42,284 bases of DNA from a virus. Taxonomy: Duplodnaviria; Heunggongvirae; Uroviricota; Caudoviricetes. The stretch is from the IMG/VR virus record IMGVR_UViG_2675903409_000014; one strand, given 5' to 3'. Shown one piece after another: positions 1,553 to 41,255 of this stretch. How positions within the stretch are numbered: the stretch's first letter is position 1; every line of letters starts with the position of its first letter. The translations under genes and the position numbers were made by a program. Below the pieces are notes generated by a model. It did no database searches, was not told the DNA's origin, and saw only the letters and a list, made by a program, of their open reading frames with translations.

Positions 1553-1753
1553 TCACGAGGACTGAAGTTTCTCGCAATTAAAATTTATCAGTTTTACTTT
1601 CTGCTCTCTGGAAACGCCTGCTTCTTTTTTACCTGAGAGCATTTTTTCGCATTCTGATTTCGTTAGTTTAGATTTTGAATATCTTGTCCAGTTAGTAGGA
1701 GTGCCACCTTCCTTTTCAATAGTGGCGGTAATTTTATACATGAACACCTCCAT
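1553..1753 (-). CDS. ydaC: YdaC-like small protein
   Basis: MEVFMYKITATIEKEGGTPTNWTRYSKSKL... matches recalled YdaC; start taken at internal Met of 86-aa ORF. Confidence 0.65.
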   Translation of the reverse strand: MEVFMYKITATIEKEGGTPTNWTRYSKSKLTKSECEKMLSGKKEAGVSREQKVKLINFNCEKLQSS

Positions 1754-1928
1754 TATTATTTCCAGTGGTTCGTTTATTTCATCGTTCGAGTGCTTCTTTT
1801 TCACTTCCACCATAACCGGTTCGGGATTCGCATCCGTTACACTTCGCTCGGTAATATCCTGAAATGGCTTTCACCGTTACTGATGGACAACCACAAAATG
1901 GACATGGTTTAACATTGTCATATCTCAT
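1734..1928 (-). pseudogene. ralR: ralR (lar) with in-frame TGA at codon 50; span is the full-length reference frame
   Basis: Minus-strand translation from ATG at 1928 gives MRYDNVKPCPFCGCPSVTVKAISGYYRAKCNGCESRTGYGGSEKEALER then TGA (plus strand tca at 1779-1781); read-through continues NKRTTGNNNGGVHV stop, reproducing the recalled 64-aa RalR. Confidence 0.55.
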
Positions 1929-1983
1929 AATTTTTCTCATAAAAATATTTCAAGTTGGCGGTGCATTACACCGCCAGGCTGAA

Positions 1984-2793: not shown

Positions 2794-5394
2794 TTGCATA
2801 TTCCTTAGCCCAGCGGGGCAGTGATAACGTCTTAATAGCTGGCCATTCATCGGTATTGAGGCAGTCAGCCAGGGTTCGCAGATTGCGGTGATATTCCAGC
2901 TGACCTGCCAGTTTTGCTTCTTCGCCCATCATGAAAATTTCAACCGGATAACGTCCGCATTCAATAGTTGTGCTGGCAACCAGAAAAACGAAAGTTGGCT
3001 GCACTCCAAACTGTGCTTCATAACCGTCACTGTAGAATGCATCCTGAACGTGATAGCGGTAGTCGTAATAAGCGGTTTTGAATCGTTGAATATCCGCCGT
3101 AGTTTTCACGTCCATGATCCAGTGAAATTCAGGGATAATTTTGTCCGGACGGCACCGACACAAAATTGCTGTTTCAGGATCTTCCCAGTAAATTGATGAT
3201 TCAGCGTGTCCGGCGCTTTCAACAAGCCATTGCCCCAGCGGCAAAGCCATAACGCTCTGATACATGAGTTCAATTTTCCGGCCTTCTTCGGCAGTGATAA
3301 CCGTTTTTCCTGTGCTTGCGCATTCCCTCAGAAACGCTTTCTCTTCTTCTTTTCCGGAGTTTGTCCGGCGGTTAAATTCAGGTGCTACGATAAAGCGGTT
3401 ACTGAATTCTTCCGGCTCAAGTACCCGGCAGTGGAAAGCGGTTCCTAAATCGAGCGTTTTTGTCTTTGTGGTGTCCACGGGGGCATTTTTACGCCACAAA
3501 TACAGTGCCGGAGTATCAGCAATGTCATCGAGCTGAGACTTACTGACACCGGGACCCGCGTGGTAATTCTCATTCGAAATTCCGTAATAAATACCNNNNN
3601 NNNNNNNNNNNNNNNNNNNNNNNNNNNNNNNNNNNNNNNNNNNNNNNNNNNNNNNNNNNNNNNNNNNNNNNNNNNNNNNNNNNNNNNNNNNNNNNNNNNN
3701 NNNNNNNNNNNNNNNNNNNNNNNNNNNNNNNNNNNNNNNNNNNNNNNNNNNNNNNNNNNNNNNNNNNNNNNNNNNNNNNNNNNNNNNNNNNNNNNNNNNN
3801 NNNNNNNNNNNNNNNNNNNNNNNNNNNNNNNNNNNNNNNNNNNNNNNNNNATTTCCGGTTCCTGTTGCACTACTGGCTCAGGTTGATTCATATCCGGGCT
3901 GGTTTTTTCCGTTTCTGGCTGGTTCTGGTACACACAATCGCGAGTCTGGATCCCCTTTACCCATTTCGGATCGTTCGGGTCGCTAATTCCGTCAACAAAT
4001 TCACCACGTGATGCAGCAAGCAATTTATCGGCATCGACAGGATTTTTTGATGGAATGTTTTTCCGGGCTTCATGGAGTTCTGCCCGCAGTTCCTGATATT
4101 TCGCATCAACAGAATTTACCTGTGACTGAGCATCCAGCGGCTGCGTGTCCTGATGATGTTCAGTTGCGTCCGGTTCCATTGTTTCAGCCTCTCCCTGTTC
4201 AACTGCCGTTGTTCCAGATGGTTGCGGTTTTTCTTCATCATCCTGTTTTCCTTCTTCTGTTACTCGCTGCGGCATCGGGGCAGAGGAGCGACCGCAGGCA
4301 ATATCCACGATTTCCGGATCAGGGTTGGCATGATCGGTTTCAGTCAGTACTTTGTTCAGATATTCAGTGACGTGCGCGGGGATGACCTCGATCCCAATTG
4401 GTGCTTCTTTTACGGACGCAACCACGATGGCGCGGGAATAATCCAGCCCGCCAGGCATGGTGATGAATTTGTCGCGGAAAACAGAAAAGGGCGGTTTATT
4501 TTCAGCGATAATTTCCTCAATGCGTTTAGCGTGTGCCGGATGAAGGTTATAGATGTCCAGATCCATTGAACGGGCCAGTACGCCAGTGGCTACGTCCCGC
4601 GCCAGTGACGTCAGATCGTGTACGAAACCTTCGCCGCGATCGGTGAGGTTTCCGCCGCCAGCATTAGCACCGGAAGCCGTGCGAGTGATGTGTGAAACAC
4701 GATTACCCTTCATCCACTCTTTTGTCAGCAGTCCTCGATCGGTGTAGTCAGCGTTCAGGTATGCTTCGAAAAAAGCAGTTATCAGTCCCAGGTTTGAATT
4801 ACCAGGATTAGGGAAAACTTTGTCAGTGTCACGAACCAGTTTGTGGAGTTCGCGAATTTCCAGCGGGTCGAGCAGGCTGGTTTTGTGGGAAACAGCCAGG
4901 GCAGTAACAGCCGGTAGTTCTTCAGCCCGAGCAATGTGTAATGCCTGGAGTCCGTCGCGTGAAACGTGCGTTACCGGTTTTTCGCTGCCGTGTTGAGCAA
5001 GCCAACGAATGGGCAGTTCCTGGCCAGAAATTGGGAGTAGCATATTCTCCTCAATCTCAGTCATGTCTTCGCCGTTGACGTTGGTATTGCCTTGATAGTG
5101 AGCGTTGTCTGGTGCTGCTCCCGGTTTTAGTTCCCATGTCATGGAGTCTTTGCTGAGTTGATAGCGTTCACTCCAGGTAAAATCGATCTCACCTTCAGCG
5201 GGCAGGTCATTAACGACAGGAAAATTCGTGGCAACAGCTTTAAAATAGCTGCTCAGTTTTTTACCTGACTTAACGATCAGGTAGTCCAGAGTGGCACAGG
5301 TCGATTCAAAATCGTTGCTTGCCCACAGGACGACGTCAGGTTCACCGGATGATTTTTTCGCTTTCCGTAACAGGAAGAGTGGTTTTGTGCTCAT
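2786..5394 (-). CDS. recE: RecE exonuclease VIII (interrupted by N-run 3596-3850)
   Basis: N-terminal [32 protein letters not shown]... and C-terminal ORF ending ...[11 protein letters not shown] match RecE; frame break coincides with N-run; 8-nt overlap with recT. Confidence 0.9.
3596..3850. other. Undetermined sequence (N-run) inside recE
   Basis: 255 N. Confidence 1.
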
Positions 5395-8990: not shown

Positions 8991-9810
8991 ATGGCCGCAT
9001 TACCATACATGCAACTGTACATAGCTGATTACCTGGCTGACACCATGCATTTGTCAGCAGAGGAGCATGGTGCGTATTTGTTGCTGATGTTCAATTACTG
9101 GCAAACAGGAAAGCCAATACCTAAAAACAGGCTGGCAAAAATTGCCCGTCTNNNNNNNNNNNNNNNNNNNNNNNNNNNNNNNNNNNNNNNNNNNNNNNNN
9201 NNNNNNNNNNNNNNNNNNNNNNNNNNNNNNNNNNNNNNNNNNNNNNNNNNNNNNNNNNNNNNNNNNNNNNNNNNNNNNNNNNNNNNNNNNNNNNNNNNNN
9301 NNNNNNNNNNNNNNNNNNNNNNNNNNNNNNNNNNNNNNNNNNNNNNNNNNNNNNNNNNNNNNNNNNNNNNNNNNNNNNNNNNNNNNNNNNNNNNNNNNNN
9401 NNNNNGAACATGATGTCAACACAAAGGCAACTAATAAAGATACAGATAAAGATCTAAAAACAGATCCCCCCCTAAATCCCCCCCGGGGGAATCGAGGTGT
9501 CAAAAAGTTTGACCCTCTGGATATTGCTTTGCCGAACTGGATTTCTGTCTCGCTTTGGCGTGAGTGGGTTGAATTTCGCCAGGCATTGCGAAAACCGATT
9601 CGAACGGAGCAGGGCGCTAACGGGGCGATACGGGAGCTGGAAAAATTCCGCCAGCAGGGTTTTTCACCTGAGCAGGTGATTCGACACAGCATCGCCAATG
9701 AATACCAGGGCTTGTTCGCGCCGAAAGGTGTTCGACCTGAGACGTTACTCCGACAGGTTAACACCGTCTCGTTACCGGATAGTGCGATCCCGCCAGGCTT
9801 CAGGGGGTAA
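8991..9810 (+). CDS. ydaU: YdaU-like replication protein (interrupted by N-run 9152-9405)
   Basis: N-terminal [40 protein letters not shown]... and C-terminal ...[36 protein letters not shown]...; frame break coincides with N-run. Confidence 0.75.
9152..9405. other. Undetermined sequence (N-run) inside ydaU
   Basis: 254 N. Confidence 1.
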
Positions 9811-12270: not shown

Positions 12271-12520
12271 NNNNNNNNNNNNNNNNNNNNNNNNNNNNNN
12301 NNNNNNNNNNNNNNNNNNNNNNNNNNNNNNNNNNNNNNNNNNNNNNNNNNNNNNNNNNNNNNNNNNNNNNNNNNNNNNNNNNNNNNNNNNNNNNNNNNNN
12401 NNNNNNNNNNNNNNNNNNNNNNNNNNNNNNNNNNNNNNNNNNNNNNNNNNNNNNNNNNNNNNNNNNNNNNNNNNNNNNNNNNNNNNNNNNNNNNNNNNNN
12501 NNNNNNNNNNNNNNNNNNNN
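12271..12520. other. Undetermined sequence (N-run) after QueH-like gene
   Basis: 250 N. Confidence 1.
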
Positions 12521-13444: not shown

Positions 13445-13694
13445 NNNNNNNNNNNNNNNNNNNNNNNNNNNNNNNNNNNNNNNNNNNNNNNNNNNNNNNN
13501 NNNNNNNNNNNNNNNNNNNNNNNNNNNNNNNNNNNNNNNNNNNNNNNNNNNNNNNNNNNNNNNNNNNNNNNNNNNNNNNNNNNNNNNNNNNNNNNNNNNN
13601 NNNNNNNNNNNNNNNNNNNNNNNNNNNNNNNNNNNNNNNNNNNNNNNNNNNNNNNNNNNNNNNNNNNNNNNNNNNNNNNNNNNNNNNNNNNNNN
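13445..13694. other. Undetermined sequence (N-run) inside nin-region repeat gene copy A
   Basis: 250 N. Confidence 1.
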
Positions 13695-14912: not shown

Positions 14913-15050
14913 ACGTTACTAGATCAAAGAGCATTAGTTCATATGTAAATTGACATTTTTCTGGCACAGGGGAGAGCTAGCGTGGTTGTCCGCTTTGTGC
15001 CAATAGCGGACATTGCTGGCTCATGGTATGTTAGTTTAAGGAGGCAGGTT

Positions 15051-16073
15051 ATGCCCTGTATTTCGCTGTGGTATAATAGTTGCGCAATTGATACAAGGGA
15101 GCGTTACATCGTGAAAATTGTTTTCGAGGTTAATGGAAAGAAAGTTCCACTAAAATCTTTAAAATACATAAGCAAAAAAGATCAACTCGAAGTAATGAAA
15201 AACTGGTTCTTTGAAAACTTTGAAGATCCGGCAAATGCTTGTCCGTATGAAAGTAGAGAAGGTGGCTATGCTTACATATATGGCGGGCCGTATGATGCGA
15301 GCGAAGAACTACAATCCATCTTCGGTCAATATGTTAAATCTGAGTATATTGAGGAATTAGTAGATGAATTACAAACACAATGTTTTGACTGGTCTGGAAA
15401 CTCAAATAATATAGATGATTGGTACGATGATGATATCTACGACGCTGTAACGTCTTCCGGTAATCCGTATTTAAAATTCATTGATAATATCGATAAAATA
15501 AAAAAACTTGCAAAAGATAAAACTGAACAACAGCAAAAAAACCACTTGCTTAGTTTGCTCTACACGAATGTTATTACAGCTTTGGAAACGCTTTATGTTG
15601 AGCTATTCATTAATTCTATAGAGAAAGATGATGTCTACATAGCCAATTGTATAGAAAAAGGTAAGACTGAATTTAAAGTAAGCAAAGATATTGCTGCGTT
15701 GCCTTTCAAGGGTGAACCCATCGAGAAAATTAGGGGAGAGCTAATCAGGTCAATCAAGGAACACTTGATCAGTGCAAGCTGGCATAGCACTAAAAAGGTA
15801 ATCGACCGCTATGAAGCTACATTCGATATAAAAGTACAAAAAGACTGTCCGATAGAAGCTATTGAATTGGCAACCCTCAATCGAAATCACTTAGTGCATC
15901 GTGGTGGAAAGGATAAAGAAGGGAACCTCGTAGTGATTACAGACCAGGATCTTGAAACGCTGATTGAAAATGCATCGAACCTGGCAATTATGCTCTACAA
16001 CAGTTTAAATGTAGCAACGAATAAAACCACCATTTTGCAACCAGATGACAAACCGTTCATTCATGAATTTTAA
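15051..16073 (+). CDS. Uncharacterized protein A of A+T-rich cassette; C-terminal HEPN-like Rx4H motif
   Basis: Strong SD taaggagg 6-7 nt before ATG 15051; alternative GTG 15111 preceded by TGgTATAAT and aagggag; A+T-rich; motif LNRNHLVHRG. Confidence 0.65.
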   Translation: MPCISLWYNSCAIDTRERYIVKIVFEVNGKKVPLKSLKYISKKDQLEVMKNWFFENFEDPANACPYESREGGYAYIYGGPYDASEELQSIFGQYVKSEYIEELVDELQTQCFDWSGNSNNIDDWYDDDIYDAVTSSGNPYLKFIDNIDKIKKLAKDKTEQQQKNHLLSLLYTNVITALETLYVELFINSIEKDDVYIANCIEKGKTEFKVSKDIAALPFKGEPIEKIRGELIRSIKEHLISASWHSTKKVIDRYEATFDIKVQKDCPIEAIELATLNRNHLVHRGGKDKEGNLVVITDQDLETLIENASNLAIMLYNSLNVATNKTTILQPDDKPFIHEF

Positions 16074-16088
16074 TAGCGCAGGTCATAC

Positions 16089-17090
16089 ATGGATATTCGC
16101 ACACGAAAGACAAAATTTTTAGAGTCGTTAGATTCAACTGAAGTGATACGCAAAGCAGTAAGTCTCGCTATAGATTGCATTATTGATAATCATAATAGTA
16201 ATGAAGATACCCCCTTAGTTATTACCAGCTATGATGATCTCTGTAGAATCCAGGTGCTAAATTATGTACAGGAGTTTTGCGAAGCTGCATTCCCTGATAT
16301 GGATGAATATTACTTTAGTCCTAACATACTTCGCATCAACGGCAAGACTAGTGAAGAAGCTTGTATTAACTTAATTAAACTCTTAAGAAGTACAAAAGGC
16401 ATGCTATTCTGGTCCGATGCCCCATCGTGGTTCGCTAGCCTCCCCGACGGATTATTCCATGTTGTTAACATTGATCAAAAAATCGTTACTCGCGGCCTTA
16501 ATAAGAAAAACTCTAAGCCGACAATAATCAATAAAGATTACAGTGTAGATACACTACTATCAGAGCTATTTTTGAATGGCGCACACATGGAGCAACCCAA
16601 CGTACACAACGTTTCTGAGGGAAACATGAAGTTCTATGATGAATGCCATGCTGGATTAATCAGACCAATACCCGCTCCAATAGGCGCGTCATACGATGAA
16701 GAGATCACAATTAATTCTCCAGATTGGCAAAAGCTCGCGTGTGTAGCTTTACGCCGCTATCAGTCGAAGGAATGTCATGACGGAATGCAATGGGATACAA
16801 CCGATCATGGTTGGACTGATGTAATCGCGTATCCATTCGTCGAAGAAATACAATCAATGGATAATAGTGGTTATCGACAATGTTTAGTTGGGCTGGTCAC
16901 AATAAACAATTCAAATGCAAATTCTCCGTACCTATCTACCGTTTGGATACATCCATTTTATCGCAGGAGAGGGTTATTAAGTAAGTTATGGCCAAAATTA
17001 CAAGAGTTATATGGAAGTAACTTCGAAATTGAGCGACCTAATGAAAATATGAAAGCATTTCTGAAAAGTGCGAAACACGCAGATTACTAA
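16089..17090 (+). CDS. Uncharacterized protein B of A+T-rich cassette; C-terminal GNAT-like motif
   Basis: 333-aa ORF 15 nt after gene A; VWIHPFYRRRGLLSKLWPKL resembles GNAT acetyl-CoA motif A. Confidence 0.7.
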   Translation: MDIRTRKTKFLESLDSTEVIRKAVSLAIDCIIDNHNSNEDTPLVITSYDDLCRIQVLNYVQEFCEAAFPDMDEYYFSPNILRINGKTSEEACINLIKLLRSTKGMLFWSDAPSWFASLPDGLFHVVNIDQKIVTRGLNKKNSKPTIINKDYSVDTLLSELFLNGAHMEQPNVHNVSEGNMKFYDECHAGLIRPIPAPIGASYDEEITINSPDWQKLACVALRRYQSKECHDGMQWDTTDHGWTDVIAYPFVEEIQSMDNSGYRQCLVGLVTINNSNANSPYLSTVWIHPFYRRRGLLSKLWPKLQELYGSNFEIERPNENMKAFLKSAKHADY

Positions 17091-19752: not shown

Positions 19753-20273
19753 TTTACCCAACGAATACAGNNNNNNNNNNNNNNNNNNNNNNNNNNNNNN
19801 NNNNNNNNNNNNNNNNNNNNNNNNNNNNNNNNNNNNNNNNNNNNNNNNNNNNNNNNNNNNNNNNNNNNNNNNNNNNNNNNNNNNNNNNNNNNNNNNNNNN
19901 NNNNNNNNNNNNNNNNNNNNNNNNNNNNNNNNNNNNNNNNNNNNNNNNNNNNNNNNNNNNNNNNNNNNNNNNNNNNNNNNNNNNNNNNNNNNNNNNNNNN
20001 NNNNNNNNNNNNNNNNNNNNTGATGCAGAGGCGTTATGTATTGATCGAGTCATAAGTGAGGTGCTGGCAGAGCATCCAGGATTGATTTGCATTCTCCGGC
20101 AACGCTATGAAGGGCGGGGGATGACTAAGCGCAAAATGGCTGAATTGCTAAATGATGCACACCCAGAGTGGTGTTTTAGCACATGCGAAAAACGGATTGC
20201 TAATTGGTTAGCTGTTGCTGAGTATGCCCTATATATTCCCATGCGTGAATCATTTGCTGAGAAAATGGCTTGA
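19749..20273 (+). CDS. Late-gene antiterminator Q-like (interrupted by N-run 19771-20020)
   Basis: Position immediately upstream of late leader and terminator; ATGA overlap with previous stop; C-terminus ...QRYEGRGMTKRKMAELLNDAHPEWCF...; family by position mainly. Confidence 0.6.
   Translation: MIYPTNTXXXXXXXXXXXXXXXXXXXXXXXXXXXXXXXXXXXXXXXXXXXXXXXXXXXXXXXXXXXXXXXXXXXXXXXXXXXXXXXXXXXXDAEALCIDRVISEVLAEHPGLICILRQRYEGRGMTKRKMAELLNDAHPEWCFSTCEKRIANWLAVAEYALYIPMRESFAEKMA
19771..20020. other. Undetermined sequence (N-run) inside Q-like gene
   Basis: 250 N. Confidence 1.
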
Positions 20274-20726: not shown

Positions 20727-21317
20727 GGGCTGGTTTATTGTATGCCAAATGATTATTAAAAAGGTTGTGTTAATAACAAGATCCGAAATAATATGCCTGC
20801 ATATTTTTATCTTGCTTATATTCTGCATATTGTGCATAGCAGGCTCATCCCTGCAATCAAAACTGTATGATGAGTATTTTTTGTTTTCCTTTTTTCCAGT
20901 CATCTGATGATGACCTGCTTCTTTTTAATCCGGATCGACATCAGTTTTTTAAGATAATTCCTGCGAGTTATATGCATAAATGCCACAAACTCCGCATTTT
21001 ATGTGGTTGGGAGTTGCCGGGCGCGCAGTGAGTTTGCTAAGAAAACTCCTGCATGGTGAATCCCCCTGTGCGGTGGGGTGATACCATTAACCTTTTCTGT
21101 CGCCGACAGGTATCACGAACATTTTGTTCACCGGGAGGCACCCGGCACCATGCACTTCAATAGATTCTCTCCACATTATGGATATTCTTTCAGAATATCC
21201 CACGCAGACTTTGTGTAAATGTTAACAAATGTGCGTTTTATTTGATCTGATTCGCTGTTTGAGCGTCCAAAACAACGGTATATATAATCCTTTACTATAT
21301 GACATATGTGAGGAAAA

Positions 21318-21746
21318 ATGGGTTTTCGTAGCGCATCAATTCTTACGTTGATTATTAGTGGGATTATTATCGGGTGCACTGATGCTGTATCGACAAATTA
21401 TCATGACCGTACATCATATTACTCCGATAAAGCAATAGAGACACAGTATGTGAGTTCATCTGAACGTACTTCTGATGTTAGTGAGGATATCCGTCTGTAT
21501 GCCCATCAAATCAAGAGCGCCATCGAAAAACAGTTCGGGGATGCGAGTAAGTATTCAGGAAAAGAGTGTACACTGAGAATGCATATGGCCCCGAATGGCC
21601 TTCTACTGGAGGTTAAAAGAGAAAGTGGAGACCTCGATTTATGTCGTGAAGCGATGAATGCGATAAAGAATGCTGATATACCTGCCCCCCCTTCGCCGGA
21701 AGTATATAAAGTATTTCAAAATGGGGTGCTGGATTTTAAACCCTGA
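21318..21746 (+). CDS. Lipoprotein with TolA C-terminal domain (TolA-III)-like fold, copy 1
   Basis: Signal peptide and lipobox IIGC; mature part YAHQIKSAIEKQFGDASKYSGKECTLRMHMAPNGLLLEVKRESGDLDLCREAMNAIKNADIPAPPSPEVYKVFQNGVLDFKP parallels recalled E. coli TolA C-terminus; TATATAAT about 25 nt upstream. Confidence 0.8.
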   Translation: MGFRSASILTLIISGIIIGCTDAVSTNYHDRTSYYSDKAIETQYVSSSERTSDVSEDIRLYAHQIKSAIEKQFGDASKYSGKECTLRMHMAPNGLLLEVKRESGDLDLCREAMNAIKNADIPAPPSPEVYKVFQNGVLDFKP

Positions 21747-22759: not shown

Positions 22760-23208
22760 TGCCTCCATCATTACGAAAAGTCGTTGCTGCTGCTATTGGT
22801 GGCGGAGCAATTGCTATAGCATCAGTGTTAATCACTGGCCCAAGTGGTAACGATGGTCTGGAAGGTGTCAGCTACATACCATACAAAGATATTGTTGGTG
22901 TATGGACTGTATGTCACGGGCATACNNNNNNNNNNNNNNNNNNNNNNNNNNNNNNNNNNNNNNNNNNNNNNNNNNNNNNNNNNNNNNNNNNNNNNNNNNN
23001 NNNNNNNNNNNNNNNNNNNNNNNNNNNNNNNNNNNNNNNNNNNNNNNNNNNNNNNNNNNNNNNNNNNNNNNNNNNNNNNNNNNNNNNNNNNNNNNNNNNN
23101 NNNNNNNNNNNNNNNNNNNNNNNNNNNNNNNNNNNNNNNNNNNNNNNNNNNNNNNNNNNNNNNNNTCGTGAGATTGAGCGTGAAGTCTGTTTGTGGGGGC
23201 AGCAATGA
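22759..23208 (+). CDS. SAR endolysin, lysozyme (interrupted by N-run 22926-23165)
   Basis: N-terminus [55 protein letters not shown] is a Gly/Ala-rich signal-anchor-release domain; C-terminus [13 protein letters not shown]; TAATG overlap with holin. Confidence 0.85.
22926..23165. other. Undetermined sequence (N-run) inside endolysin gene
   Basis: 240 N. Confidence 1.
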
Positions 23209-23669: not shown

Positions 23670-23806
23670 AATCTTAACTACAATATGATTCATTTTGATG
23701 ATTGTTTCATAAGGAACAGTGAAGTAAGATCTAAGAGGAGTTAAATTTTATACAGTATAATCATAATATTGCAGCAAGGTGGTTATAATTGAAAGAATAT
23801 TTAGAT

Positions 23807-25264
23807 ATGAATACATCTCATGTAAGAGTTGTTACTCATATGTGTGGGTTCCTGGTTTGGCTCTATAGTCTTTCAATGTTGCCACCAATGGTTGTAGCAT
23901 TGTTTTATAAAGAAAAAAGCCTGTTCGTTTTCTTTATAACTTTCGTTATATTTTTTTGCATTGGTGGCGGAGCGTGGTATACAACTAAGAAATCTGGCAT
24001 TCAATTACGTACCCGTGATGGGTTTATTATAATTGTAATGTTTTGGATTTTGTTTTCTGTTATTAGTGCATTCCCTTTATGGATTGACTCAGAACTTAAT
24101 TTAACGTTCATTGATGCTCTGTTTGAAGGGGTTTCTGGAATAACAACAACAGGAGCAACTGTAATTGATGATGTTAGTTCATTACCTCGGGCATATTTGT
24201 ACTATCGGTCACAGTTAAATTTTATAGGTGGTTTAGGAGTTATTGTTCTGGCGGTTGCAGTATTGCCATTATTGGGTATTGGTGGTGCAAAGCTTTATCA
24301 GTCAGAAATGCCGGGGCCATTTAAGGATGACAAACTCACTCCCCGCCTGGCCGATACGTCACGGACACTGTGGATAACTTATTCTTTATTAGGTATTGCT
24401 TGTATTGTCTGTTATAGACTTGCAGGAATGCCTTTGTTTGATGCTATTTGTCACGGGATTTCCACAGTTTCGCTTGGTGGTTTCTCAACTCATAGCGAGA
24501 GTATCGGATATTTTAATAACTATTTGGTTGAGCTGGTGGCTGGTTCTTTTTCCCTGCTATCGGCTTTCAACTTCACTCTTTGGTATATTGTTATTAGCAG
24601 AAAAACGATAAAACCTTTAATCAGAGATATTGAACTTCGTTTCTTTCTGTTAATAGCCTTAGGGGTGATCATTGTTACCTCTTTCCAGGTCTGGCATATA
24701 GGTATGTATGACTTGCATGGAAGTTTTATTCATTCGTTTTTTCTTGCCAGCTCCATGCTCACTGATAATGGTTTAGCTACGCAGGATTATGCAAACTGGC
24801 CCACGCACACGATAGTGTTTTTGCTGTTGTCAAGTTTCTTTGGGGGATGTATAGGTTCAACCTGTGGTGGAATTAAGTCACTTCGATTTCTTATACTTTT
24901 CAAACAAAGCAAACACGAGATAAATCAGCTTTCTCATCCCAGAGCGTTGTTGAGTGTAAATGTAGGAGGGAAGATAGTTACAGATCGTGTAATGAGGTCT
25001 GTATGGAGTTTCTTTTTTCTTTATACTCTCTTCACGGTGTTTTTTATACTGGTGTTAAATGGTATGGGATATGATTTTCTTACATCATTTGCAACAGTGG
25101 CTGCATGTATTAATAATATGGGATTAGGTTTTGGGGCTACTGCATCGTCATTCGGAGTGCTTAATGACATTGCAAAATATTTAATGTGCATAGCTATGAT
25201 TCTTGGTCGCCTTGAAATTTATCCTGTTATTATATTGTTTTCAGGTTTTTTTTGGCGCTCCTAA
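23807..25264 (+). CDS. trkG: TrkG potassium uptake protein
   Basis: 485 aa from MNTSHVRVVTHMCGFLVWLYSLSMLPPMVVALFYKEKSLFVFF...; multi-pass membrane protein; A+T-rich. Confidence 0.9.
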   Translation: MNTSHVRVVTHMCGFLVWLYSLSMLPPMVVALFYKEKSLFVFFITFVIFFCIGGGAWYTTKKSGIQLRTRDGFIIIVMFWILFSVISAFPLWIDSELNLTFIDALFEGVSGITTTGATVIDDVSSLPRAYLYYRSQLNFIGGLGVIVLAVAVLPLLGIGGAKLYQSEMPGPFKDDKLTPRLADTSRTLWITYSLLGIACIVCYRLAGMPLFDAICHGISTVSLGGFSTHSESIGYFNNYLVELVAGSFSLLSAFNFTLWYIVISRKTIKPLIRDIELRFFLLIALGVIIVTSFQVWHIGMYDLHGSFIHSFFLASSMLTDNGLATQDYANWPTHTIVFLLLSSFFGGCIGSTCGGIKSLRFLILFKQSKHEINQLSHPRALLSVNVGGKIVTDRVMRSVWSFFFLYTLFTVFFILVLNGMGYDFLTSFATVAACINNMGLGFGATASSFGVLNDIAKYLMCIAMILGRLEIYPVIILFSGFFWRS

Positions 25265-27305: not shown

Positions 27306-28384
27306 ATGAGCAGACCGGACTGGGGGGCGTTGCAGCAGGAGTATATTGCTGAATACACCCGCTCCGGTATATCTCCGGTGGCATGGTGTGAAGCAAGGGG
27401 ACTGAATTACGCAACAGCCCGTCGTTACATCAAAAAAACTCCGAAAAATGCGCAGACAGAAATGTGCAAANNNNNNNNNNNNNNNNNNNNNNNNNNNNNN
27501 NNNNNNNNNNNNNNNNNNNNNNNNNNNNNNNNNNNNNNNNNNNNNNNNNNNNNNNNNNNNNNNNNNNNNNNNNNNNNNNNNNNNNNNNNNNNNNNNNNNN
27601 NNNNNNNNNNNNNNNNNNNNNNNNNNNNNNNNNNNNNNNNNNNNNNNNNNNNNNNNNNNNNNNNNNNNNNNNNNNNNNNNNNNNNNNNNNNNNNNNNNNN
27701 NNNAGCAACGCCAGTCGTATGCTTAGAAATGCCAGGGTTTTTCGCGCTATCAGCTACTTCCGCAATCAGTACCAGAAACGCTATACCGCAGACCTGGATT
27801 TACTAGTGAGTCAGTTGATGGCTATTGTCCTGGCCGACCCCAATCAGCTTGCACAATTTCGCCGTGTTAACTGCCGTTATTGCTGGGGCGAGAATCATCT
27901 CTACCAGTGGCGCGATATAGCAGAATTCGACAAGGCAGCGGCGCAGGCTTCCAGAGATGGCAAACCCGAACCGGAATATGGAGGCCTCGGCTTTGTTGAT
28001 AACGCCATACCCAATCCGGACTGCCCGAAGTGCTGCGGTGAGGGAACGGGACAGCTTTATATGGCTGATACCACTCTGCTTGATGGGGATGCGCGGCAAT
28101 TATATGCAGGGGCAAAATTCGGAAAATTCGGCGTTGAGATCCTGCTGGAGGATAAGGCTGCCGCCCGGCGTGAATTGTTGCGTTTGTTTTCTGCTGGCGG
28201 GGCTTTATGTGCAGATAAGCGGCTACGGGAACTGGAAATTGAACGGCGCAGAATGGAAAACCAGAAGCTGCGCAAAGAGATCGAAACGGTGGAAGATAAT
28301 GAACATCCCCAGCCTGTGGCGATCAATATTAATGTGGTTGATGCCAGAGTAAGGAGTGATGAAGATGATCTCTCCGACGCTTAA
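27306..28384 (+). CDS. Terminase small subunit (interrupted by N-run 27470-27703)
   Basis: N-terminal HTH-like GISPVAWCEARGLNYATARRYIKK; C-terminal part ends 29 nt inside terminase large subunit start; frame break at N-run. Confidence 0.65.
27470..27703. other. Undetermined sequence (N-run) inside terminase small subunit gene
   Basis: 234 N. Confidence 1.
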
Positions 28385-33040: not shown

Positions 33041-33138
33041 CACATTTGTCAGCTTCCGGATGGGAGCTGGTGTCAGGGCTGGATAGCTCATTACTCCATC
33101 TATTCACAATTACGCAAATTTTTAAGGAATATTTAATT

Positions 33139-34278
33139 ATGGCTGGAAATACCCTGACCGGGTTGATCCCGACTATTTATACCGCCCTGGATGTTGTATC
33201 CCGTGAGCAGGTAGGTTTTATCCCTGCGGTAGCAAAAAACGCAAAAGCTGACGCCGCAGCAAAAGATCAGACGGTAACCGCGCCAGTTGCGCCTGAGGCG
33301 AAAACCGAAGATATCGTACCGGGGCCGTCAGCTCCGAATACCGGTGATCAAAATATTGGCACTGTTGATGTAAAAATTACTAAATCCAAAATGGCACCGG
33401 TTAAATGGAATGGTGAAGAACAACTGGCTCTTGGCCCTTCAGGGACTTACAACACCATTCTGGCTGATCAGTTCAAGCAGGCTTTTCGCGCCCTTGCAAA
33501 CGAGGTTGAGGCTGATCTTGGTGCGTTGTATTTCGGTGCTTCCCGCGCCGTGGGAACCGCAGGGACAACGCCGTTTGGTGTTAAAGATGATCTTTCTGAT
33601 GCTGCTCTGGCTCGTCAGGTTCTGGAGGATAACGGCGCACCGACAACCGATCTGCAGATGGTGCTTGGCTCCACTGCCATTGCTAATTTGCGCGGAAAAC
33701 AGTCTGTATTGTTTAAAGTGAATGAATCCGGCACTGAACAGCTACTGCGTGAGGGCGTGTTGGGGCGTCTGGAGGGATTCAATATTCACAGTTCGGCAGG
33801 TGTGAAACGAGCGCCAAAGGTTGCTGCAACTGGTTATCTCGTGAATGGAGAGAAAAAAGAAGGCGATGTTCTTATTTCCATTGATACTGGTTCGGGGAGT
33901 ATTTCTGCAGGTCAGATTGTTACGTTCGCTGGTGATCCGAATCAGTATGTTGTGGCAGCAGCGACCAGCAATCTGATTACTCTTGCAGCGCCCGGACTGC
34001 GTCAGGATCTGGCCGATGATACTGCCATCACAGTTGTTGGGGCCTTTACTGCAAATATGGCGTTTGATCGCAACGCGTTTCTGCTGGCATCCCGTACTCC
34101 GGCAATGCCGGAAGGTGGCGATAATGCTGATGATGTAATGAATGTTACGGACCCGATTTCAGGGATTACGTTCCAGATTGCACTGTATCGTCAGTATCGC
34201 CAGGTGCGCTATGAAGTTGGACTGGCATGGGGTGTTTCATCAGTGAAGCCGGCACATGGTTGTCTGATTCTTGGTTAA
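33139..34278 (+). CDS. Major capsid protein (putative)
   Basis: 379 aa from MAGNTLTGLIPTIYTALDV...; SD aagga; followed by strong terminator. Confidence 0.6.
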   Translation: MAGNTLTGLIPTIYTALDVVSREQVGFIPAVAKNAKADAAAKDQTVTAPVAPEAKTEDIVPGPSAPNTGDQNIGTVDVKITKSKMAPVKWNGEEQLALGPSGTYNTILADQFKQAFRALANEVEADLGALYFGASRAVGTAGTTPFGVKDDLSDAALARQVLEDNGAPTTDLQMVLGSTAIANLRGKQSVLFKVNESGTEQLLREGVLGRLEGFNIHSSAGVKRAPKVAATGYLVNGEKKEGDVLISIDTGSGSISAGQIVTFAGDPNQYVVAAATSNLITLAAPGLRQDLADDTAITVVGAFTANMAFDRNAFLLASRTPAMPEGGDNADDVMNVTDPISGITFQIALYRQYRQVRYEVGLAWGVSSVKPAHGCLILG

Positions 34279-38021: not shown

Positions 38022-41000
38022 ATGGCAGAGCAAACCTCGCGTCTCGCAATAATTATTGATAGCACTGGAGCGAAAAATAATGCTGACAATCTGACCTCCT
38101 CATTAGTCAAAATGACGCAGGCTGGGGAAACTGCTGCAAATAGCGCAGGGAAAGTGACTAAGGCAACAGAAGATGAGAAGAACGCGCTCGCAAAATTAAA
38201 AGCAGCTATTGATCCAGTTGGTGCCGCAATTGATACTGTCGGTCGACGCTATTCTGAATTAAAGAAATTTTTCGATAAAGGGCTTATTGATAAAGAAGAA
38301 TATGAATTTCTTGTCCGTAAACTTAATGAAACCACAGAGGAATTGAGCGGGGTTGCGCAAGCGCAGAGAGAAGCCGAGAAGGCCGGAAAACTTGCTGCCG
38401 CCCAGCAGGAAGCGCAGGCTCAGGCCTTTCAAAGAATGCTGGACAAGATCGACCCTCTGGCTGCGGCGCTAAGAAATCTTGAACAACAGCATGATGAACT
38501 TAATGCTGCGTTTGCATCCGGGAAAATAAATGGTTCTCAGTTTGAGAATTATAGCCGAAAAATACAGGAAACACGGCGAGAGCTTACCGGAGAGGCTCAG
38601 GCAGAGCGAGAAGCAGCAAAAGCGCATGATGAACAGGTTGTTGCTTTGCAACGTCTGATTGCTCAACTTGATCCTGTCGGAACTGCTTTTAATCGTCTGG
38701 TAGAACAACAGAAACAGCTCAATGAAGCAAAAGCTAAGGGGATGCTTTCTCCTGAAATGTATGAGGAGCTTTCTGGAAAACTTCGTGCTATGCGGAGTGA
38801 GCTTGAGGTTACTCAATCACAATTAAGCAAAACCGGAATGTCGGCAAAACAAACGGCTTTTGCTATGCGCATGTTGCCTGTACAAATGACGGATATTGTT
38901 GTTGGGTTGTCCACTGGTCAGTCGCCATTTATGGTGTTAATGCAGCAGGGCGGCCAGCTAAAAGATATGTTCGGTGGGATTGGCCCGGCGATCAAAGGTG
39001 TAGGTTCTTATGTGCTGGGATTAATTAATCCTTTTACCCTGGCCGCAGCAGCCGTTGGGGTCTTAGGACTGGCTTACTATAAAGGCTCTCAGGAGCAGGA
39101 CGAATTTAATAAATCTCTTATTCTTACCGGAAATCAGTTGGGGACAACCAGCGGGCAATTGGGCGATATAGCTCAACGTGCCGGGAATGCGGCTGATTCG
39201 ACAACTGGTGCTGCGGCGGCAGTATTAAATCAGCTTGTGCGTTCGGGAAAGGTAGCGAGCAGTTCGCTGGAGCAAGTGACGACAGCGATAGTAAAAACGA
39301 GCGAAGTAACAGGAATATCAACCGAACAACTGGTTAATGACTTCAATGAAATTGCAAAGGATCCTGTCAGTGCCATATCAAAACTTAATGATCAGTACCA
39401 TTTTCTGACACTTGCGACTTATAACCAGATTAAGGCGCTACAGGATGAAGGGAACCAGCAGGAGGCCGCCCGCATTGCGACAGAAGAATACTCATCCTCA
39501 ATGATCCAGCGCACCAACCAGATTAAAGAAAATCTTGGTTATCTTGAGACTGCATGGAAAGCTGTCGCAGACTCCGCAAAATGGGCATGGGATTCCATGC
39601 TGGATATTGGCCGTGAGGCCTCCCTTGATCAAAAAATCTCAGATGTTCTCCGTCAAATTGATGAAATAGAAAAAAATACCCGACCCGGAGTTTTCGGGTT
39701 AGGTGGCATTGGAGATGGCGGAGCTCAAAATAAAAGGCTGGCACGATTAAAGCAGCAATTGGGCGTACTTCAAGCAGAAAAAATTGCTCAGGACGTACTA
39801 AATTCATCAATAAACGATTACAACAAGCGACAACAGGAAGGAATTGAACTCAGACAGAGAGCAGATGCCTTTTCAAAACAATATCAGACCCGGGAGCAGC
39901 AGAGAGCTAGTGAACTTGCAAAACTGGAAAAGCTAAAGAATCAGTATTCAAAGGAAGAATATAATAATCTTATCGCTCAAATAAATGAGCGTTATAAAGA
40001 TCCAAAGCAACCAAAGGCGAAAGGTTATTCTGATGATGCAGCCCAACGAATGATTGATCATCTGAATCAACAGAATGCGTTACTAAGTTCACAAGCTGAG
40101 TTGACCGTTAAATTAAGTTCCTCTGAACAGGAACTGGTTAAGTGGCGTCAGCGGATTGCCGACCTAGAGTCACGACCATCATCGAAATTAACCCAGGATC
40201 AGAAATCGCTTCTCTTACACCGGGAAGAAATAACCACGTTGATGGAGAAAAATGTTGCGATTGAAAAAAATAACAGGCTAATCAAGGAATCCGCCGAAAT
40301 AACAGCATGGCGTGATTCATTGCAGGCTTCGATTGATAATCGTCAGCAGGGGTATGATATTCAGATTGCTGGTTATGGGGTTGGCGATAAAAATCAGCAA
40401 CGCCAGCAGGAATTACTGCGGATTGAACATGGATATAACAATCAGCGTCTGCAACTTGAACGTGACTATGCAGATAAATCCCGTGGAATGTCAGATCATG
40501 TTTTTCAAGAGAAAATGCAGGCTCTGAATGATGCTCTGGAACGGGAAAAAGAAATTGTCAGACAGAAAAACGAGCAGCTCGATATTCAGGCAGGAGACTG
40601 GGTTAGTGGTGCCTCCCAGGGATTCAATAACTGGCTGGATGACACTAAGGATATCAGTGAGCAGATAAAATCAACCACGACTCAGATGTTTGATGGGATG
40701 ACCGATGCGCTGGGTGATTTTGTCACGACAGGCAAGGCAAATTTTCGTTCTTTCGCTACTTCCGTGATTTCGGATCTTAGTCGAATAGCATTAAAGGCTT
40801 CAATTACTGGGATTTTCGACAGCATTAGTAACAGTTCTTCTGGGGGGATTTTAGGAACTATCGGGAGTGCTATTAGTAAATTTATTCCGAATGCAAAGGG
40901 CGGTGTTTATGAGTCTCCGTCATTGAGCACGTATTCGAACGGTATTTATGATTCCCCGCAATTTTTTGCTTTTGCAAAAGGGGCTGGTGTTTTTGGTGAG

Positions 41001-41255
41001 GCTGGACCGGAAGCCATTATGCCATTAACACGAACTTCCGATGGTTCTCTTGGTGTCAGAGCTATTAATAGTAAAAGTGGTAATGGAGGCGGAGATATTA
41101 CCTATGCCCCTGTATACCAAATCACTATTCAAAATGACGGCCAGAATGGAGAGATTGGCCCTCAGGCAATAAAAGCACTTATGGGGATGGTTGATCAGCG
41201 GGTGCAGGGCAATCTGTTAAATATGCGACGTGATGGGGGAATGTTAAGTGGCTAA
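38022..41255 (+). CDS. Tail tape measure protein
   Basis: 1077 aa; internally repetitive coiled-coil N-terminal half; hydrophobic central segment; immediately upstream of M and L. Confidence 0.85.

What the first reader, a model, noticed from the sequence alone, without database searches (positions are those of the whole stretch)
1734..1928. ralR (lar) carries an in-frame TGA at codon 50
Translation from the ralR start gives the first 49 residues of RalR and then TGA where I recall Trp in K-12; read-through reproduces the remaining 15 residues, so this looks like a single TGG to TGA change. RalR is reported as a type I toxin (DNase) with restriction-alleviation activity, so truncation may inactivate it. 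The ydaC start lies within the 3' portion in another frame.
Basis: partly seen in the sequence, partly recalled or inferred. Interest (0 to 1): 0.5.

Follow-up and report, generated by a model that had tools for sequence, protein, structure and literature searches.

The report
Common truncated allele of RalR toxin
The Rac-like prophage in this window carries a real, widespread natural stop-codon allele of the small DNase toxin gene ralR that removes residues shown to be needed for toxicity, so it is most likely a dead toxin next to an intact antitoxin RNA, which is an ordinary kind of gene decay.

Summary
ralR runs on the minus strand from ATG 1928. Codon 50 (1781..1779) is TGA where K-12 has TGG, and reading through reproduces the K-12 C-terminus exactly.

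It is not a sequencing error:
- The same allele occurs in 308-310 of 5426 complete E. coli genomes, including O157:H7 EDL933, O55:H7, O26, O111 and O103.
- The exact 49-aa product is on at least 1000 public contigs.
- RefSeq lists it as the 49-aa RalR protein WP_001443846.1.

Trp50 is ancestral; Salmonella, Citrobacter and E. albertii homologs keep it. Trp50 and Asn51 are invariant in 57 diverse Lar-family proteins, like the four zinc-ligand cysteines. The stop cuts the only predicted helix (residues 43-53). Guo et al. 2014 found that changes at residues 49, 51 and 52 reduce toxicity, and that a residue-52 mutant has no DNase activity.

The neighbours are intact:
- the RalA antitoxin RNA, identical to K-12 over 179/179 nt
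- its 16-nt target inside ralR
- ydaC/rcbA

Best reading: a natural loss-of-function, or at most very weak, toxin allele. Low-level UGA readthrough by tRNA-Trp would restore the exact wild-type protein. It is possible, but nothing here supports it as a designed feature. This is known biology of low interest. The practical point is that annotation pipelines still name the product a RalR toxin.

The parts
1779..1928 (-). Truncated ralR (lar) CDS: 49 codons plus TGA. It encodes the zinc-ribbon part of RalR (CxxC at residues 9-12 and 30-33) but lacks W50 onwards.
   Evidence: Translation. PGAP annotates the identical sequence as a 150-nt ralR, WP_001443846.1. NCBIfam NF007260 scores 126.9 bits over profile positions 1-49 of 64. 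Pfam PF14354 scores 39 bits over positions 2-52 of 58.
1779..1781 (-). Premature stop TGA at codon 50, where K-12 and all outgroups have TGG (Trp). The next base is A (UGA-A).
1782..1784 (-). Codon 49, CGA (Arg). It is AGA in K-12, a synonymous difference.
1734..1778 (-). Former ralR codons 51-64 plus TAA, now downstream of the stop. The frame is still open and identical to K-12 (NKRTTGNNNGGVHV*). It contains the ydaC ribosome-binding site and start codon.
1938..1940 (-). Alternative in-frame upstream ATG (MRKIM...), shared with K-12. It gives the 53-aa reading used in phage record ON470616.
1791..1806 (-). 16-nt RalA pairing site in ralR mRNA (AAGTGAAAAAGAAGCA, nt 123-138 of the CDS). It is intact and lies 9 nt upstream of the stop codon.
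   Evidence: site defined in PMC4041452.
1557..1735 (+). ralA, the RalA antitoxin sRNA gene, antisense to ydaC. Full length and 179/179 identical to K-12.
   Evidence: Rfam RF02694, 225.1 bits against a gathering score of 170, model positions 1-179. Zero mismatches to K-12 b4714.
1619..1634 (+). The partner 16-nt repeat inside ralA. It reads AGGTAAAAAAGAAGCA on the minus strand, and RalA carries the complement.
   Evidence: PMC4041452.
1553..1741 (-). ydaC/rcbA (DUF1187), 62 aa plus stop. Its Shine-Dalgarno GGAGGTG at 1751..1745 and its ATG at 1741..1739 lie inside the former ralR 3' end.
   Evidence: Pfam PF06688, 132 bits. PGAP calls a 189-nt CDS in E2865..
1941..1975 (-). Leader between recT and ralR: a GC hairpin (GGCGGTG-TAATG-CACCGCC, 1975..1957) followed, 11 nt further on, by a T-run (1945..1941). 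The window has T5 and K-12 has T6.

Best explanation
This is the RalR/RalA type I toxin-antitoxin locus of a Rac-like lambdoid prophage, and the toxin gene carries a natural nonsense allele. A G-to-A transition changed the ancestral Trp50 codon TGG to TGA. Ribosomes therefore release a 49-residue peptide. That peptide keeps the four-cysteine zinc ribbon but loses the end of the single C-terminal helix, including the invariant Trp50-Asn51 and Lys52-Arg53. Substitutions at residues 51 and 52 alone already reduce toxicity, and a residue-52 mutant lacks DNase activity in vitro, so the 49-aa product is most likely non-toxic and catalytically dead, or at most very weak. The RalA sRNA gene, its 16-nt target in ralR mRNA and the overlapping ydaC/rcbA gene are untouched, so the locus now amounts to an antitoxin RNA and ydaC beside a disabled toxin. 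Shown here: the stop codon, its wide distribution, its derived state, the conservation of the lost residues and the intact neighbours. Taken from the literature: the need for residues 51 and 52. Inferred: that this particular truncated product is inactive.
For: The stop sits at codon 50 and read-through reproduces the K-12 tail. The allele is real and common: 308 exact 81-nt matches and 310 exact 44-nt matches among 5426 complete genomes, including O157:H7 EDL933, O55:H7, O26, O111 and O103. The exact 49-aa protein is on at least 1000 contigs. TGG is ancestral, since Salmonella, Citrobacter and E. albertii homologs and most E. coli alleles have RWN(K/R)R. In 57 single-domain Lar-family proteins at 33-77% identity, the invariant columns are C9, P10, F11, C12, C30, C33, W50 and N51, and R53 is at least 90% conserved. 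Of the top 150 family representatives, out of 1690 with E<=0.001, all but a few match up to or beyond residue 50; the exceptions are two RalR-YdaC deletion fusions whose match stops at residue 47 and P0018, which matches only residues 34-64. Truncation lowers the Pfam score from 53.5 to 39 bits and the TIGR03655 score from 55.3 to 40.3 bits, against a cutoff of 39.6. The AlphaFold2 model (pLDDT 78.9) has strands 17-22 and 25-30 and one helix at 43-53, so the stop removes the last four helix residues. In Guo et al. 2014 (PMC4041452), an error-prone PCR screen found that changes at residues 14, 37, 39, 49, 51 and 52 reduce toxicity, and the purified residue-52 mutant did not cleave DNA. The stop allele sits on at least three sequence backgrounds, represented by the window, L009 and L010, so loss of full-length RalR is tolerated repeatedly or spreads by recombination.
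Against: Nobody has assayed the 49-aa product. It keeps the complete zinc ribbon and still passes the curated RalR and Lar model cutoffs. The allele shows no further decay: the listed matches are 100% identical over 451 nt across distant lineages. That could mean residual constraint, although overlap with the RalA target and the ydaC ribosome-binding site could explain it equally well. UGA is the leakiest stop in E. coli and is decoded mainly as Trp, so a small amount of exact wild-type RalR may still be made.
Confidence: 0.72

Rival explanations
1. Leaky-stop hypomorph. The UGA is read by near-cognate Trp-tRNA at a low, condition-dependent rate. Because the lost residue was Trp, read-through regenerates exact wild-type 64-aa RalR. 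The allele would then be a strongly attenuated, stress-tunable toxin rather than a null.
For: The frame downstream of the TGA is open and identical to K-12 through the normal TAA. In K-12 reporter strains UGA readthrough was about 2% at 37 C and about 4% at 25 C (PMC10570021). TGA was the most error-prone stop, was replaced almost always by Trp, and readthrough rose under cold and nutrient stress (PMC11126739). From my own knowledge, not tested here: A after UGA is a comparatively weak termination context.
Against: Nothing specific promotes readthrough. The 91 nt around and downstream of the UGA fold no better than shuffles (z = -1.14, 23 of 200 shuffles fold as well), and the window has no tRNA gene. 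Conservation of the downstream frame is already explained by the ydaC Shine-Dalgarno and start codon embedded in it. The quoted readthrough rates come from K-12, whose RF2 is unusually weak (noted), and most carriers of this allele are not K-12. RalA would repress the small residue further.
Confidence: 0.13
2. The 49-aa zinc-ribbon peptide keeps a function of its own. It might alleviate restriction or enhance modification without DNase toxicity, or interfere with full-length RalR made by a second prophage.
For: The full four-cysteine zinc ribbon is kept, and the product still scores above the Lar and RalR model cutoffs. The allele persists unchanged in many lineages. Some carriers, such as E2865, also hold a full-length ralR in a second prophage.
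Against: W50 and N51 are as invariant as the zinc ligands across the family. None of the 57 aligned single-domain members ends before them, and among the top 150 representatives only the two RalR-YdaC deletion fusions stop matching before residue 50. Whatever the family's common activity is, it probably needs them. Point changes at residues 49, 51 and 52 already reduce RalR activity. No data exist for any separate activity of the N-terminal part.
Confidence: 0.1
3. Sequencing or consensus error in this window, with the true base giving TGG.
For: None beyond the general possibility for a single base.
Against: Identical sequence occurs in 308-310 independently assembled complete genomes and on at least 1000 contigs, and three deposited phage genomes closely match this region, one of which (ON470616) annotates the 53-aa truncated reading.
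Confidence: 0.01

Closest known systems
RalR/RalA type I toxin-antitoxin system of E. coli K-12 cryptic prophage Rac (ralR b1348, ralA b4714; Guo et al. 2014, PMC4041452)
   Same: The locus and gene order are the same: intR-xisR-ydaC/ralA-ralR-recT-recE. RalA is 179/179 identical, both 16-nt pairing repeats are identical, and RalR residues 1-49 are identical.
   Different: Codon 50 is TGA instead of TGG, so the product is 49 aa rather than 64 aa. R49 is CGA, not AGA. ydaC is 62 aa, not 69 aa. The ralR leader has a T5 run, not T6. The prophage here is a long mosaic with head and tail genes, unlike the 23-kb K-12 remnant.
Lar family restriction alleviation proteins (Pfam PF14354, TIGR03655; Lar of Rac, King & Murray 1995, cited from memory and via PMC4041452)
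   Same: The zinc-ribbon core, with CPFCG and CxxC motifs, matches the family models.
   Different: It lacks the family's invariant C-terminal WN and near-invariant R (A-x3-W-N-x-R).
Chromosomal type I toxins inactivated by mutation, for example most hok-like loci of E. coli K-12, mentioned in PMC4041452
   Same: The toxin ORF is disabled by a point mutation while the surrounding locus and antisense RNA gene remain.
   Different: Here the toxin is a soluble zinc-ribbon DNase rather than a membrane peptide, and the disabling change is one nonsense codon that natural Trp-tRNA misreading would reverse exactly.
Natural UGA readthrough by Trp-tRNA in E. coli (PMC10570021, PMC11126739)
   Same: A UGA at a position where Trp insertion gives a meaningful product.
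   Different: No evidence here of a stimulatory context or structure, and no evidence of selection for the read-through product.

Membership tests
RalR toxin (NCBIfam NF007260 equivalog) | Sequence match above the curated cutoff | tested here: met
   126.9 bits against a cutoff of 113, but covering only profile positions 1-49 of 64. The read-through product scores 166 bits over 1-64.
RalR toxin (NCBIfam NF007260 equivalog) | Full-length 64-aa product including residues 50-53 (W-N-K-R), which are needed for toxicity and DNase activity | tested here: not met
   Stop at codon 50. Residues 51 and 52 are required according to PMC4041452.
RalR toxin (NCBIfam NF007260 equivalog) | Growth inhibition and non-specific DNase activity of the product | not testable with these tools
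   Needs expression and cleavage assays. Inactivity is predicted.
RalR/RalA type I TA locus | Adjacent, oppositely oriented RalA sRNA gene | tested here: met
   Rfam RF02694, 225.1 bits, positions 1-179 of 179, at 1557-1735 (+). Identical to K-12.
RalR/RalA type I TA locus | 16-nt complementarity between RalA and the ralR coding region | tested here: met
   Both repeats are present and identical to K-12, at 1806..1791 and 1634..1619.
Lar_restr_allev (Pfam PF14354 / TIGR03655) | HMM score above the gathering or trusted cutoff | tested here: met
   PF14354 scores 39 against 28.6. TIGR03655 scores 40.3 against 39.6, which is marginal.
Lar_restr_allev (Pfam PF14354 / TIGR03655) | Four-cysteine zinc ribbon (C9, C12, C30, C33) | tested here: met
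   All four are present in the 49-aa product.
Lar_restr_allev (Pfam PF14354 / TIGR03655) | Invariant C-terminal W-N (and R) motif at the end of the helix | tested here: not met
   W50 and N51 are invariant and R53 is at least 90% conserved in 57 family members. All are removed by the stop.
Lar_restr_allev (Pfam PF14354 / TIGR03655) | Alleviation of type I (EcoKI) restriction | not testable with these tools
   Needs a phage plating assay.
Programmed UGA recoding (selenocysteine or stimulated readthrough) | Stable RNA structure immediately 3' of the UGA, or a dedicated suppressor tRNA | tested here: not met
   The fold of 1790..1700 gives -15.1 kcal/mol, z = -1.14. ARAGORN finds no tRNA in the window.

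The most novel reading that the evidence does not exclude
The Trp50 UGA acts as a dosage valve. Basal and stress-enhanced misreading of UGA by Trp-tRNA (cold, starvation, high cAMP) restores exact wild-type RalR in a small, heterogeneous fraction of cells. The DNase toxin would then be produced only under translational-fidelity stress. The allele's spread through STEC lineages and onto several prophage backgrounds would reflect selection for this attenuated form rather than neutral decay.
Probability: 0.08. Interest if true: 0.5.

Novelty: already known. Interest (0 to 1): 0.17.

Why it matters
The main value is as an annotation and interpretation caveat. About one in six ralR-carrying complete E. 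coli genomes (310 of about 1900) encode only the 49-aa form, and these include the major STEC serotypes. PGAP still labels that form [quoted passage not shown], because it clears the model cutoff. Surveys that count TA systems, or that attribute fosfomycin tolerance or restriction alleviation to ralR, would overcount functional toxins. The allele is also a ready-made natural truncation for testing what the C-terminal WNKR motif of Lar-family proteins does.

Tried and rejected
- **Sequencing error:** rejected by population counts.
- **Single-step intermediates:** the 81-nt CGA-TGG and AGA-TGA queries gave no exact matches. At first this suggested that no intermediate haplotype exists. Shorter queries and sampling then showed that CGA-TGG exists on other flanks (L012-L014) and that AGA-TGA exists in a draft genome (L009).
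- **Solved structures:** a sequence search found only spurious CbpD matches. Foldseek of the model against the PDB gave nothing at E<=0.001, only weak zinc-ribbon neighbours such as Pol III C11, ELOF1 and eIF2-beta.
- **PADLOC:** no hit for either RalR form.
- **Recoding signals:** none found.
- **Promoter and terminator scan of 1400-2100:** nothing decisive.
- **Literature:** one search for 'ralR' plus truncation terms was swamped by unrelated papers. A 'ralR' plus 'O157' search found no description of the allele. King & Murray 1995 is not held, and the Guo et al. supplements are not held.

Full report
**The observation.**
The gene lies on the minus strand. Translation from the ATG at 1928 gives 49 residues of RalR (MRYDNVKPCPFCGCPSVTVKAISGYYRAKCNGCESRTGYGGSEKEALER). 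A TGA follows at 1781..1779, then NKRTTGNNNGGVHV and a TAA at 1736..1734. An in-frame ATG four codons upstream, at 1940, gives an alternative 53-aa reading. K-12 MG1655 ralR (b1348) is 195 nt and has TGG at codon 50. Over about 500 nt the window differs from K-12 at four places:
- a T5 versus T6 run in the ralR leader
- codon 49, CGA here and AGA in K-12, both arginine
- codon 50, TGA here and TGG in K-12
- codon 63 of ydaC/rcbA, TGA here and AGA in K-12

**It is not an artefact.**
A 451-nt query around ralR matched 1922 of 5426 complete E. coli genomes, and all 40 listed matches were 100% identical. Exact-context counts were as follows.

| Haplotype (codons 49-50) | Context | Exact matches in 5426 genomes |
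|---|---|---|
| CGA-TGA (window) | 81 nt | 308 |
| AGA-TGG (K-12) | 81 nt | 1110 |
| CGA-TGG | 81 nt | 0 |
| AGA-TGA | 81 nt | 0 |
| CGA-TGA (window) | 44 nt | 310 |
| AGA-TGA | 44 nt | 0 |

A further 126 genomes carry CGA at codon 49 with one mismatch in the 44-nt context. All three that I sampled are full-length CGA-TGG alleles. Carriers of the stop allele include O157:H7 (EDL933 among them), O55:H7 DEC5A, O26, O111:H8, O103 and various commensal or animal isolates. The exact 49-aa protein is on at least 1000 contigs in the 15-billion-protein collection, a count that is capped. The 53-aa reading is deposited for phage vB_EcoS-673R7. PGAP annotates the allele as a 150-nt ralR CDS (WP_001443846.1) without a pseudogene flag. 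The reason is that the 49-aa product scores 126.9 bits on the RalR equivalog model, whose cutoff is 113.

**Direction and history of the change.**
Homologs in Salmonella, Citrobacter and E. albertii, and the other common E. coli variants, all have R-W-N-(K/R)-R. TGG is therefore ancestral and TGA derived. All four combinations at codons 49 and 50 exist:
- AGA-TGG in K-12, L003, L007 and L015
- CGA-TGG in L012-L014
- CGA-TGA in the window and L010
- AGA-TGA in L009

L010 differs from L015, the second and full-length ralR copy of strain E2865, at only four of the ~425 compared positions: the two sites of the CGA-TGA patch and two SNPs near the 3' end of ydaC. It also sits beside a different integrase and excisionase module. 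The stop has therefore either arisen more than once or moved between co-resident Rac-like prophages by short-tract gene conversion. Either way, cells tolerate loss of full-length RalR repeatedly.

**What the stop removes.**
A full scan of 1.84 billion representative proteins found 1690 Lar-family relatives at E<=0.001. Of the 150 best, almost all match up to or beyond residue 50. The exceptions are two RalR-YdaC deletion fusions, whose match stops at residue 47, and P0018, which matches only residues 34-64. In an alignment of 57 single-domain members at 33-77% identity, the only invariant columns are C9, P10, F11, C12, C30, C33, W50 and N51. G13, A46 and R53 are at least 90% conserved. The stop thus deletes two of the eight invariant residues. 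Truncation costs 14.5 bits of the Pfam PF14354 score (53.5 to 39) and 15 bits of the TIGR03655 score (55.3 to 40.3). An AlphaFold2 model built from that alignment has mean pLDDT 78.9. It shows a beta-hairpin (17-22 and 25-30) and one helix (43-53), so the helix loses its last four residues. No solved relative exists by sequence or by fold. The nearest weak fold matches are zinc ribbons.

**Experimental evidence from the literature.**
Guo et al. 2014 (PMC4041452) showed three things about K-12 RalR: it is toxic, it cleaves DNA non-specifically, and it is repressed by the Hfq-dependent sRNA RalA through 16 nt of complementarity in the ralR coding region. Their error-prone PCR screen found that changes at residues 14, 37, 39, 49, 51 and 52 reduce toxicity. 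The purified residue-52 mutant (A154G) did not cleave DNA. Residues 51 and 52 lie beyond the stop in this window. If single substitutions there disable the protein, deleting everything from residue 50 onward should too. That last step is my inference, because the truncated product itself has not been assayed.

**The rest of the locus is intact.**
Rfam finds a full-length RalA at 1557-1735 (+), with 225 bits against a gathering score of 170. It is identical to K-12 at all 179 positions. The 16-nt target in ralR (1806..1791, 9 nt upstream of the stop codon) and the partner repeat in ralA (1634..1619) are unchanged. ydaC/rcbA is a complete 62-aa DUF1187 gene at 1741..1553. Its Shine-Dalgarno sequence and ATG lie in the now untranslated ralR tail. 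This overlap gives a sufficient reason for the tail to stay conserved, so its conservation is not evidence that the tail is still translated.

**Rival readings.**
- **Leaky stop.** UGA is the leakiest stop in E. coli and is decoded almost always as Trp. Reported rates in K-12 reporters are about 2% at 37 C and 4% at 25 C, and higher under stress. Readthrough here would rebuild exact wild-type RalR. I found nothing that would promote it: no structure 3' of the UGA (z = -1.14) and no tRNA gene in the window. The quoted rates also come from K-12, whose RF2 is weak. Some readthrough probably happens physically, but I rate a biologically meaningful role at about 0.13.
- **Separate function of the peptide.** A distinct role for the 49-aa zinc ribbon cannot be excluded, but the invariance of the WN motif argues against it (0.1).
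- **Sequencing error.** Excluded.

**Verdict.**
It describes a common, already catalogued natural allele of a well-studied gene, and toxin decay in chromosomal TA loci is ordinary. I found no paper that discusses the allele. The practical point is that annotation pipelines name this product a RalR toxin although it very probably is not one.

Noticed in passing
window 1553-1741 (-); SNP at 1555: ydaC/rcbA is 62 aa here, as in every non-K-12 relative examined (E. coli, E. albertii, Salmonella). K-12's 69-aa RcbA comes from TGA to AGA at codon 63, so K-12 is the odd one out. The SNP lies 2 nt upstream of the mapped RalA 5' end (1557), so it could also touch the ralA promoter.
   Followed up: partly
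window 1941-1975 (-): A GC hairpin, followed 11 nt downstream by a T-run, lies between recT and ralR. It looks like a weak terminator or leader. The T-run is T5 here and T6 in K-12. The simple terminator scan did not call it.
   Followed up: no
L016 / NZ_AP018808.1 (strain E2865), 1.870 Mb and 2.524 Mb; L010: Strain E2865 carries two Rac-like prophages, one with the truncated ralR and one with a full-length ralR. Many O26, O103 and O111 genomes also show two ralR places. L010 looks like the full-length background with only a CGA-TGA patch, which suggests gene conversion between co-resident prophages.
   Followed up: partly
P0012 (67 aa), P0015 (96 aa), found from the window's RalR: Natural in-frame RalR-YdaC fusion proteins exist in some E. 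coli. They are deletions that join RalR at about residue 46 to the YdaC C-terminus, a second independent way of losing the RalR C-terminus.
   Followed up: no
window 3596-3850, 9152-9405, 12271-12520, 13445-13694, 19771-20020, 22926-23165, 27471-27703: Seven runs of 233-255 N. The first interrupts recE. They look like deliberate masking rather than biology.
   Followed up: no
window 21021-21207 (+): Rfam match to the sRNA STnc100 (RF02076), 86.6 bits against a gathering score of 47.
   Followed up: no
window 14982-16073 (+) and 16089-17090 (+): Two adjacent ORFs of 363 and 333 aa have no Pfam or PADLOC match. They hit only the unknown-function families PHROG 17908 and 16994. They look like accessory cargo between the DUF1627 (ydaW-like) gene and a DUF1971 gene.
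   Followed up: partly
window 1-42284: The element is a long mosaic Rac-like lambdoid prophage. The first ~10.5 kb are 98.5-99.5% identical to the E2865 Rac-like prophage (intR, xisR, ralR, recT, recE, and in E2865 racC and kilR). The rest diverges and carries a trkG-like TrkH (23789-25264), a TolA-C domain ORF (21318-21746), a P22-like coat protein (33046-34278) and a 1077-aa ORF at 38022-41255 that is probably the tail tape measure. The closest deposited phages are vB_EcoS-666R9 and vB_EcoS-673R7.
   Followed up: partly
PMC4041452 (Guo et al. 2014): The inactive control mutant is called both K52G and K52Q for the nucleotide change A154G. From the ralR sequence, codon 52 is AAA, so A154G would give GAA (Glu). 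The residue number matters for this report; the substituted amino acid does not.
   Followed up: no
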